From Heptranchias perlo (taxonomy: Eukaryota): a stretch of DNA of 64,000 nucleotides. A program made the translations under genes and the position numbers. The notes below the pieces were generated by a model. That model saw only the letters and a program-made list of their open reading frames with translations, did no database searches and had not been told where the DNA came from. Positions 54,220 through 55,869 of this stretch are shown here, piece after piece (positions within the stretch are counted from its first letter, which is position 1; every line of letters starts with the position of its first letter). Where the stretch lies: the NCBI RefSeq assembly GCF_035084215.1, contig NC_090367.1:4774001-4838000 (forward strand). The letters run 5' to 3'.

Positions 54220-55229
54220 GTATGGGCGTATGTCCGGGAGGCGGGAGAAAGAGTCTTACCCGGGACGGGTCCGGGTTTAATTGCAACTGATCCGGAGTGA
54301 AAGTGAGAGTTAACTGGCATTTTGGGTGGGATTTTGTTTCTGCAAACCGAGGGAAAAGTGGGAGGGGGAAATACAGTTTTCAGTTTGGTCGCACTCTCCT
54401 GGAAATACAACTGCTTGTTATTTCATATAAAGCTGCCCCATTTCTGCTCGAATCTCTTGAAATAATAACAGCAACTGCTGGCTGACATCTTTATCCTGTA
54501 ACCCATTCTTGGGTTGCTTTGGGTCAGGTACGTAGGGAGGATGAAATGTGAGGAGAGGGGGAGGAGGCTGTTTGCATTAGCAGGAATTATAATTGATTTT
54601 ATTTGACATTATTTATCCATTGCATGAATTGTTTGCACATTAAATGCTCTCGTACTGTAATGCACCACGCGTATGTCTTATAATTTATTTAATGTGATTA
54701 TTGGCGCCTTTTCTGAAACTCATTGCTGATCAGCGATCATTGAGACAGTGTAACTGGTAAATAGGGCTAGGTTTCCATTTGGGGAACTCAAATTTTGTTA
54801 CTTAAAACAAATATTCTAAAATATTTGTTACATTAATAAAAACAACTGTAACAAAACAACCAATTTGGGGGAATTCCCACACAAACTTTCCACTGACTGC
54901 ATCAAACATTTGATAGATTAAATTATTTGAAAGAGATATATTTATATATATATATATATTAAAAAAAACACTTCCTCCTCTCCACACCCAGGGATGGCGG
55001 CCAATCCAGAATTGATGGGATTCATTGATAAGTTTGCGATCTAATTTTGGCGCCGAAATGTAGACCGCAATTTCCCCCCCCCCTTTTTTTGCGGAAAAAA
55101 AAGCGAATTAAACGTCTGGAAATTATTAAAATGTTGCATTTAAAGCGCAGCAGAGGCCAGAAAAGGTCACACTTTAGTTACAGACGTTGCAATTTGATAA
55201 TACTTGGTGGTGTTTTTTCTTTGGTGCAG

Positions 55230-55418
55230 GTTCCGGAGCCAGTCCTTTCTGAGGGAGTTGTGGAGATGGAGCCGGAGCCGGAGGAGAGGCTGCTGCCGCC
55301 TCTGACCCCTCGGAATCCGATCCGGGGACGCTCCAGGATCCCCAGGAGCAGCGTGGCCGGGTCGGTGCTGGAGGAGGAGGAGGAGGAGGTGGTAGTGGTG
55401 GCGGAGCCGCAGCCGCCG
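55230..55418 (+). CDS. Unidentified gene, 189-nt exon (VPEPVLSEGVVEMEPEPEERLLPPLTPRNP...EEEEEEVVVVAEPQPP)
   Basis: Strong TTTTTTCTTTGGTGCAG acceptor and CCG|GTAAGT donor. GC-rich island in AT-rich flanks. Phase 0-0. Confidence 0.75.
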
Positions 55419-55598
55419 GTAAGTGCAGGGGGGAAGCGGGCGTTTTATTGCATTCGCAGCCGCTTGCTGCATTGAAGCAAAAGAGATTAGGGGGTTTCGG
55501 GAAACTCCCAGGAAGGGATTAAATATACAAATGAGCAGCATGCATGTGGCGATTGAGACTCTTAGAGATGCCCAGAGTGGTCTTTATCATTCTTGTAA

Positions 55599-55814
55599 CC
55601 ATGATGTGGAGATGCCGGTGATGAATATGGACCACCATCACCACCTCCTCCTACGTTTCGGCGCCAAAATTAGATCGCAAACTTATCAATGAATTTTTCA
55701 TTTCGAGGATTTCATTTCCACATCGTTCACCTGAGGAAGGGGGAAGCCTCCGAAAGCTTGTGAATTTAAAATAAAATTGCTGGACTATAACTTGGTGTTG
55801 TAAAATTGTTTACA
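55599..55814 (+). mobile_element. Short Penelope-like element insertion with 13-bp target-site duplication
   Basis: ATCATTCTTGTAA at 55586-55598 and 55815-55827. PLE-type end CCTGAGGAAGG...CCGAAAGCTTGTG...AATAAAATTGCTGGACTATAACTTGGTGTTG. Inverted tail piece CCATGATGTGGAGATGCCGGTG at the 5' end. Confidence 0.8.
55726..55764 (+). ncRNA. Minimal type I hammerhead ribozyme motif
   Basis: Stem I TTCAC/GTGAA, core CTGAGGA, stem II GGGGG-AAG-CCTCC, GAAA, and palindromic AAGCTT in place of stem III. This is the architecture of Penelope-associated minimal hammerheads. Confidence 0.7.
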
Positions 55815-55869
55815 ATCATTCTTGTAAGGTAGGGATTTGGATCATGAGTGTCCCACGGTCCGCAGTCTC

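What the first reader, a model, noticed from the sequence alone, without database searches (positions are those of the whole stretch)
55020..55827. Penelope insertion that captured inverted copies of neighbouring host DNA, creating a 44-bp inverted repeat around an exon
Seen: inside the TSD-bounded insert (55599-55814), 55651-55694 is the reverse complement of host 55020-55063 (43/44 identical). The adjacent CACCATCACCACCTCCTCCT resembles the reverse complement of exon sequence 55381-55400. These patches sit between an inverted PLE tail piece and the hammerhead-bearing end. Inference: template switching onto local DNA or RNA during integration (PLE RT or polymerase-theta repair). The two arms bracket the 189-nt phase 0-0 exon, the geometry that favours exon skipping or back-splicing.
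Basis: partly seen in the sequence, partly recalled or inferred. Interest (0 to 1): 0.72.

Follow-up and report, generated by a model that had tools for sequence, protein, structure and literature searches.

The report
Penelope insert with locally copied filler
A short Penelope-type jumping-gene insertion in a shark intron carries backwards copies of nearby host DNA, likely a repair scar of a kind already known from other retrotransposons, and the exon it brackets is kept in the assembled transcripts.

Summary
A 216-bp insert with a 13-bp target-site duplication sits in an intron of a shark PLD3-like gene. It reads: inverted Penelope-like (PLE) tail (24 nt), 8 unassigned nt, an inverted copy of exon 55381-55401 (19/21), an inverted copy of intron 55020-55063 (43/44), then a 121-nt forward piece with a minimal hammerhead. 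Contigs of public runs show a very high-copy family whose members share the tail-plus-forward layout. The 44-mer is not in the family consensus and has at most single-copy depth, so the filler is local. Likely mechanism: both target ends primed reverse transcription; the top-strand end then folded back on its own upstream strand and copied two patches before joining. Which polymerase did this, and whether on DNA or pre-mRNA, is not shown. Locally templated filler is known for L1, ZfL2 and R2; my searches found no PLE case, and the templates here lie farther away (0.2 and 0.5 kb). The splicing idea is unsupported: a hairpin is predicted, but the exon is in both RNA-run contigs and both annotated isoforms, and 189 nt is short for circularisation. 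Minor isoforms were not testable. All runs come from one sample.

The parts
55020..55063 (+). Host intron stretch that served as template for the 44-nt patch; upstream arm of the inverted repeat
   Evidence: 43/44 to the reverse complement of 55651-55694; single-copy depth in X1. The one mismatch is TG in the host against CG in the copy
55230..55418 (+). 189-nt phase 0-0 coding exon of a PLD3-like gene (residues 19-81 of P0003)
   Evidence: spliced to the upstream exon in contigs of X5 and X6
55381..55401 (+). Exon stretch that likely served as template for the second patch
   Evidence: 19/21, 13 nt exact; about 1% by chance after allowing for composition
55586..55598 (+). Target-site duplication, left copy (13 bp, AT-rich, contains ATT)
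   Evidence: left junction on single-copy contigs reaching 55621 in X1 and X2
55600..55623 (-). Inverted distal 24 nt of the family's roughly 38-nt tail
   Evidence: Its reverse complement overlaps by 9 nt the family consensus that continues behind 55816; siblings carry longer versions (tables 5c and 7)
55624..55631 (.). 8 nt of unassigned filler, probably non-templated
   Evidence: Best nearby match is a 9-mer at 56967, expected 0.41 times by chance in the window
55632..55652 (-). Patch 2: inverted copy of exon 55381-55401; 55636-55642 could instead be a fold-back copy of the adjacent tail
   Evidence: 7-bp hairpin with 55617-55623 in the predicted fold
55651..55694 (-). Patch 1: 44-nt inverted copy of intron 55020-55063; shares 2 nt (CT) with patch 2
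   Evidence: depth in bin 55625-55685 is 7.8 (X1) and 14.2 (X2) against single-copy baselines of 40 and 18.5
55696..55816 (+). 5'-truncated forward piece of the PLE-like repeat; the last 2 nt overlap the right TSD
   Evidence: 15,628 and 10,523 contigs laid in X1 and X2, summed depth peaking at 8.8e6 and 5.4e6 here; loose-end tables mark 55696 and 55816 as the limits of family match
55725..55765 (+). Minimal type I hammerhead motif: 6-bp stem I, CUGAGGA core, extra base after position 9, 5-bp stem II, GAAA, palindromic AAGCUU, predicted cut after 55759
   Evidence: Stems I and II in the predicted fold (z-score -0.96, so the fold alone is not significant); features as in PMC4209133; no Rfam hit
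55815..55827 (+). Target-site duplication, right copy
   Evidence: right junction on single-copy contigs from 55793/55794 in X1 and X2

Best explanation
This is a short insertion of a very abundant Penelope-like repeat whose two pieces were likely joined through locally copied filler, and it is likely neutral for the host gene. Inferred steps: (1) the element's endonuclease made staggered cuts 13 bp apart in AT-rich intron DNA; (2) both 3' ends primed reverse transcription, the top strand at the far end of the tail (24 nt, inverted) and the bottom strand at the near start site (121 nt); (3) the top-strand end left the RNA, gained 8 probably untemplated bases, folded back onto its own upstream strand (single-stranded after resection of the bottom strand), copied exon 55401 to 55381, slipped 318 nt further by a 2-nt match and copied intron 55063 to 55020; (4) it was joined to the other cDNA. 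A polymerase-theta-type host enzyme working on DNA is the likeliest copier. Shown: layout, TSD, local origin of the 44-mer, family-wide tail-plus-forward form, exon inclusion. Inferred: all enzymatic steps and neutrality.
For: Both patches come from the same (left) flank, both are inverted, and they are ordered away from the cut (197 then 535 nt from 55598) with a 2-nt overlap at their junction; this is what a 3' end tracking along one template strand gives. The mix of unassigned and fold-back bases matches the switching described for polymerase theta (PMC4912351 passages). A Poseidon PLE protein cuts and extends both strands, prefers ATT, and starts at two sites that bound the tail (PMC11167929). 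11 of 15 joints shown run from 55621-55623 to 55713-55772, so siblings share the bipartite form, and 8 of the 9 shown between-letter rows at 55623 fit a longer inverted tail. Local filler is documented for ZfL2, R2 and L1. Exon inclusion.
Against: Sequence cannot tell the resected top strand from the unspliced sense RNA as template. No priming microhomology is visible where patch 2 starts, and the junction to the forward piece needs one or two extra T. Resection beyond 570 nt is needed, whereas templated L1 insertions typically copy from within 15 bp. Patch 2 has two mismatches and part of it may come from the tail. No empty site was seen, no listed contig spans the filler, and all runs are one sample. 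No RT-encoding copy of the family was examined.
Confidence: 0.52

Rival explanations
1. The PLE reverse transcriptase itself jumped from its own RNA onto the nascent, unspliced PLD3-like pre-mRNA and copied exon then intron sequence before the ends were joined.
For: The filler is antisense to the host transcript on the same strand as the tail cDNA, in the order a reverse transcriptase would meet it. The gene is represented in RNA-guessed runs, including an unspliced 55420-55558 piece at depth 2.1. PLEs capture host sequence and template jumps were proposed for them (PMC3846280). It needs no long resection.
Against: One event has a one-in-two chance of this orientation. The junction between the patches is not a splice junction, so nothing is RNA-specific. 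Germline transcription at the time of insertion is unknown.
Confidence: 0.2
2. The bottom-strand cDNA invaded upstream duplex DNA (sister or same chromatid) twice, copying 55020 to 55063 and then 55381 to 55401 toward the cut, as in synthesis-dependent strand annealing.
For: Gives the same final sequence; this route was proposed for templated L1 insertions (10.1101/2024.08.27.596794 passage). A possible AT microhomology exists at 55693-55696.
Against: Annealing of that cDNA to the exposed left overhang would give direct, not inverted, copies; inverted copies need two duplex invasions on 2-nt homologies. The cDNA end does not match host 55010-55019.
Confidence: 0.15
3. Whatever its origin, the inverted repeat now causes measurable skipping or back-splicing of the 189-nt exon.
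For: Arms lie 166 nt before the 3' and 232 nt after the 5' splice site; predicted duplex -72.6 kcal/mol, mean pairing probability 0.997, and patch 2 pairs with the exon at 0.77 in an equilibrium fold of 54950-55850. Repeats of 30-40 nt can suffice in reporters (PMC4201285). Skipping would keep the frame.
Against: One 2,173-nt X5 contig carries the upstream exon, this exon and 1,795 further letters, against 1,758 nt of remaining coding sequence. 2 of 2 annotated isoforms keep the exon. Reporter exons of 400 nt or less circularised poorly or not at all. Longer inverted SINE-like pairs (135 bp at 80%, 318 bp at 81%) already bracket this exon and the one before it.
Confidence: 0.08
4. The 44-mer is a dispersed repeat or part of a PLE subfamily, or the insert is mis-assembled.
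For: No listed contig spans 55622-55793, and X1 cover of bin 55625-55685 is only 7.8 against 40.
Against: Depth over both arms does not exceed single copy while flanking PLE bins are 1e5 to 1e7; the family consensus before 55696 is a different sequence; both junctions are on single-copy contigs. The one mismatch between the arms is hard to get from an assembly error that copies one arm.
Confidence: 0.05

Closest known systems
Short 5'-truncated EN+ PLE insertions with an inverted 5' copy and a 30-40-bp tail (PMC8557442, PMC3846280, PMC11167929)
   Same: TSD, inverted truncated copy at the 5' end, tail at one end only, minimal hammerhead, AT-rich target with ATT
   Different: The inversion junction holds 72 nt of filler, 63 of them traceable to host DNA within 0.6 kb; no such local filler appeared in the passages read. 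No ORF is present
Templated insertions in somatic and experimental L1 retrotransposition (10.1101/2024.08.27.596794: 22 cases among 3,598; PMC11702581: three cases)
   Same: Non-element DNA from near the integration site built into the insert; twin priming as the frame
   Different: L1 templates typically lie within 15 bp of the site; here two templates lie 197 and 535 nt away and the insertion is germline
5' extra nucleotides of fish L2-clade LINEs (PMC4245944, PMC2666801) and R2 snap-back junctions (PMC11371274)
   Same: Filler at the joining end derived from flanking DNA or by fold-back synthesis
   Different: Different element class; filler here sits between two oppositely oriented cDNAs
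Polymerase-theta end-joining insertions (PMC4912351)
   Same: Alternation of untemplated bases and fold-back copies with tiny microhomologies
   Different: Median insertion there was 7 bp in vitro; enzyme involvement here is not tested
Host-DNA capture between PLE pLTRs in Adineta vaga (PMC3846280)
   Same: PLE ends framing host sequence inside one TSD
   Different: There kilobase segments or whole genes are moved to new loci; here tens of bases are copied from the insertion site itself

Membership tests
EN+ Penelope-like element (non-autonomous fragment) | Minimal type I hammerhead in the pLTR (core, extra base between 9 and 10.1, G10.1-C11.1, palindromic helix III) | tested here: met
   Read from 55725-55765; stems; criteria from PMC4209133. 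Rfam gave no hit
EN+ Penelope-like element (non-autonomous fragment) | Inverted 5'-truncated copy and a 30-40-bp tail at one end | tested here: met
   Tail of about 38 nt from the loose-end consensus plus 55600-55623; 11 of 15 shown joints give the same form in siblings; criteria PMC8557442
EN+ Penelope-like element (non-autonomous fragment) | Target-site duplication at an AT-rich site | tested here: met
   13-bp TSD; no empty allele was seen to confirm it directly
EN+ Penelope-like element (non-autonomous fragment) | Link to a telomerase-like RT plus GIY-YIG ORF in full-length relatives | not testable with these tools
   No genome held; no second copy in the window; collection scans gave only motif-length matches
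EN+ Penelope-like element (non-autonomous fragment) | Hammerhead self-cleavage | not testable with these tools
   Needs an assay; single minimal motifs were inactive in PMC4209133
Locally templated junction insertion | Filler matches DNA near the break beyond chance | tested here: met
Locally templated junction insertion | Filler absent from the element consensus and not a dispersed repeat | tested here: met
   Loose-end consensus and depth, (contigs only, one sample)
Polymerase-theta-mediated end joining | Microhomology at each template switch | tested here: inconclusive
   2 nt between patches; none at the start of patch 2; ambiguous at 55694-55696
Polymerase-theta-mediated end joining | Dependence on POLQ | not testable with these tools
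   Needs a transposition assay in POLQ-deficient cells
Inverted-repeat-driven circular RNA or exon skipping | Complementary arms in both flanking introns | tested here: met
Inverted-repeat-driven circular RNA or exon skipping | Back-splice or skip junction in RNA | tested here: inconclusive
   None among 15 joints shown, 19 not shown; contigs drop rare forms; the next exon lay outside the stretch laid
Inverted-repeat-driven circular RNA or exon skipping | Exon long enough to circularise efficiently | tested here: not met
   189 nt; in one reporter system 400 nt or less circularised poorly (PMC4201285). A tendency, not an absolute rule

The most novel reading that the evidence does not exclude
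The PLE reverse transcriptase jumps onto the nascent pre-mRNA of the gene it is entering and writes antisense copies of it into the insert. In a shark family this abundant, that would routinely plant near-perfect hairpins around exons, seed skipping or circular RNAs, and reveal how PLEs join their two cDNAs.
Probability: 0.07. Interest if true: 0.75.

Novelty: new member of a known kind. Interest (0 to 1): 0.3.

Why it matters
How PLEs finish integration is unresolved (PMC11167929 calls the late steps yet to be validated). This locus is a clean fossil of two-ended priming followed by local template switching. It suggests a cheap genome survey of fillers, by side, strand and distance, that could separate host repair from RT jumping. 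As a single event with no shown effect on the gene it is modest. It would matter more if such fillers proved common, transcript-biased or able to change splicing.

Tried and rejected
Whole-genome search: no genome is held, so the 44-mer count and a survey of sibling insertions could not be done directly. Public collection scans for a 20-nt PLE motif: 0 hits exact in metagenomes; with one position free, 3 metagenome, 0 viral and 2 prokaryote-genome loci; all 5 match only 20-28 nt of the insert and were rejected as chance. Earlier-findings look-ups by sequence, words and place returned nothing. Rfam found no hammerhead in 50000-64000; the 3 weak hits were elsewhere. Run search: no RNA holder listed; 4 runs are only guessed to be RNA; all 8 rows are one sample; I laid 4 of the 8. 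No RNA-contig cover over 54222-55197 or 55625-55685 is recorded here only, not as evidence. The 9-mer match of the 8-nt filler at 56967 was rejected as chance. A spliced-RNA template for the two patches was rejected: the junction has no canonical splice signals. Orthologues from two other sharks were too diverged at the exon end to give the ancestral state of patch 2. PMC9977147 and PMC2912911 passages held nothing on locally templated filler. Supplements were not opened; Fig. S10 of PMC11702581 and Supplementary Fig. 4d of the L1 tumour preprint may show longer-range cases.

Full report
Context. Exon 55230-55418 translates to 63 residues that match a 5'-3' exonuclease PLD3-like protein of the shark Heptranchias perlo at 100% identity. 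Both members of that protein cluster contain the exon: P0003 (646 aa) in full, and P0001 (616 aa) from a methionine inside it. Orthologues from two other sharks keep a TPRNPIRG motif encoded by this exon. No whole genome was held.

Observation. The 13-bp TSD (55586-55598, 55815-55827) and the 44-bp inverted repeat (55020-55063, 55651-55694; 43/44; E 1.4e-15) are as stated. At E<=1e-5 it is the only inverted pair of at least 90% identity within 3 kb in the window. The mismatch is TG in the host against CG in the copy; CpG decay in the host arm after insertion is the likely cause (inference). The second patch, 55632-55652, matches exon 55381-55401 at 19/21 with 13 nt exact, and matches nowhere else in 64 kb at up to 3 mismatches except an overlapping register in the same exon. 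Because it is low in complexity I ran an empirical null: 24 of 62,602 13-mers and 12 of 1,594 C-rich 13-mers have an exact inverted match 50-600 nt upstream; for 21-mers with up to 2 mismatches the counts are 21 of 62,578 and 5 of 490. So about 1% by chance. A caveat: 55636-55642, which holds both mismatches, is also complementary to the adjacent tail, so only the 13-nt core is cleanly exon-derived. The 8 nt at 55624-55631 have no significant source.

The element. I laid 4 of 8 listed runs, all contigs from one sample, on 54100-55900. 15,628 (X1) and 10,523 (X2) records were laid; summed depth over 55747-55807 is about five orders of magnitude above the single-copy baseline (the tool warns this is not a copy number). 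Loose ends show that the family match begins at about 55696, with a different upstream consensus from the 44-mer, and ends at 55816. The family continuation behind 55816 overlaps the reverse complement of 55600-55623 by 9 nt, which defines a tail of about 38 nt. 11 of the 15 joints shown (19 more hidden) link 55621-55623 to 55713-55772, so other copies also consist of an inverted tail joined to a truncated forward piece. Of 9 shown between-letter rows at 55623, 8 fit a longer inverted tail and one holds 17 other letters; 7 of the 11 joints are marked 'between: not known', so filler frequency cannot be read. 55725-55765 has the hallmarks of PLE minimal hammerheads (PMC4209133 passages; review PMC6155905 passages), although Rfam does not detect it and the fold alone is not better than shuffles. 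The inverted 5' copy and one-ended tail are standard for PLEs (PMC8557442 passages; PMC3846280 parts 1-4 of 5). No RT-encoding relative was examined, so PLE membership rests on these structural features.

Is the 44-mer a repeat? Depth in bin 55015-55075 is 40.1 in X1 (baseline 40.1) and 14 in X2 (baseline 18.5); in bin 55625-55685 it is 7.8 and 14.2. Neither arm draws extra records, so it is not a high-copy repeat nor part of the consensus. Both junctions lie on contigs at baseline depth that run through the TSD copies, which fits a homozygous insertion; no empty-site row is shown. Against this: no listed record bridges 55622-55793, 32,064 rows were hidden, and these runs may be the assembly's own source.

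Mechanism. A purified Poseidon PLE protein cuts and extends both strands, prefers ATT, and starts reverse transcription at two sites that bound the tail (PMC11167929 parts 1-2 of 4). The insert fits this: the top strand carries cDNA from the far site, the bottom strand from the near site, as in L1 twin priming (PMC2912911 passages). The filler between them comes from the left flank only, is inverted, and moves away from the cut (197, then 535 nt from 55598) with a 2-nt overlap between patches. A top-strand 3' end folding back on its own strand explains all of this and keeps the TSD intact. The bottom-strand cDNA annealing to the exposed left overhang would give direct repeats instead (reasoning). 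Untemplated bases alternating with fold-back copies resemble polymerase theta products (PMC4912351 passages). The same sequence would arise if the RT jumped to unspliced sense RNA; one event cannot separate these. Priming homology is missing at the start of patch 2, and the reach is long.

Splicing. The arms are 166 and 232 nt from the splice sites. An equilibrium fold of 54950-55850 pairs them at 0.997 and pairs patch 2 with the exon at 0.77, and 30-40-nt repeats can drive circularisation in reporters (PMC4201285 passages). So the geometry is real. But contigs of both RNA-guessed runs join the upstream exon to this exon, and one 2,173-nt X5 contig continues 1,795 letters past 55358, close to the 1,758 nt of remaining coding sequence, which fits a full mRNA with the exon. 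The same paper found exons of 400 nt or less circularised poorly or not at all. Longer inverted pairs of a SINE-like repeat (label recalled) already bracket this exon together with the one before it: 135 bp at 80% and 318 bp at 81%, with predicted duplexes of -194 and -464 against -73 kcal/mol; they have competing partners inside the downstream intron. Contigs drop rare forms, library types are not on record and the next exon lay outside the stretch laid, so minor skipping or circles are not excluded.

Comparison and novelty. Filler copied from the flanks is known for zebrafish ZfL2 (PMC4245944, PMC2666801 passages), R2 snap-back junctions (PMC11371274 passages) and L1, where 22 templated insertions among 3,598 typically used templates within 15 bp (10.1101/2024.08.27.596794 passages) and three more were seen experimentally (PMC11702581 passages). 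PLEs are known to capture host DNA between pLTRs (PMC3846280). My searches found no report of locally templated filler at a PLE inversion junction; the library lacks most subscription journals and supplements were not read. The case is therefore a new member of a known kind, with two mild twists: the PLE setting and the 0.2-0.5 kb, two-step reach.

Verdict. Real feature, local origin of the 44-mer well supported, mechanism likely fold-back synthesis during two-ended PLE integration, no evidence of a splicing effect. Interest 0.30.

Noticed in passing
window 54550, 55023-55036, 55084: X2 contigs differ from the window: 11 bp left out at 54550, T>C at 55084, and no cover of 55023-55036 with 29 unaligned letters on the neighbouring contig. 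This may be a second haplotype with a small indel inside the host arm of the 44-mer, which would weaken the hairpin on that allele (unverified).
   Followed up: partly
window 54970-55044: A pyrimidine tract and AG at 54990-54991 precede a 16-codon ATG-to-stop frame that overlaps the host 44-mer arm; it looks like a possible cryptic exon. No contig of X5 or X6 covers it.
   Followed up: partly
window 55725-55765: The minimal hammerhead is in sense orientation within the PLD3-like pre-mRNA intron; as a lone minimal motif it is likely inactive.
   Followed up: partly
window 55696 and 55702: Loose-end tables show two different upstream continuations of the repeat family, suggesting at least two subfamilies.
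   Followed up: no
window 52238-52549, 56179-56341, 57290-57538, 57908-58122, 59229-59542: Five copies of a SINE-like repeat (label recalled) in mixed orientation form inverted pairs of 135-318 bp at 69-86% identity in and around the PLD3-like introns.
   Followed up: partly
window 49869-50242: GC-rich tandem array with a 33-nt unit and higher-order periods of 68 and 112, upstream of the PLD3-like gene; source of weak, spurious Rfam hits.
   Followed up: no
window 62114-63162 and 51842-51988: 67-nt tandem unit, 16 copies at 94% and a second short array of the same unit.
   Followed up: no
window 47129-48538 (-) and 10390-11166 (-): ORFs that look like a BTB-zinc-finger protein and the first exon of a SAP-domain hnRNP-U-like protein (labels recalled, not searched).
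   Followed up: no
window about 24400-24750 and 26900-27200: Two assembly gaps (521 N in all), far from the finding.
   Followed up: no
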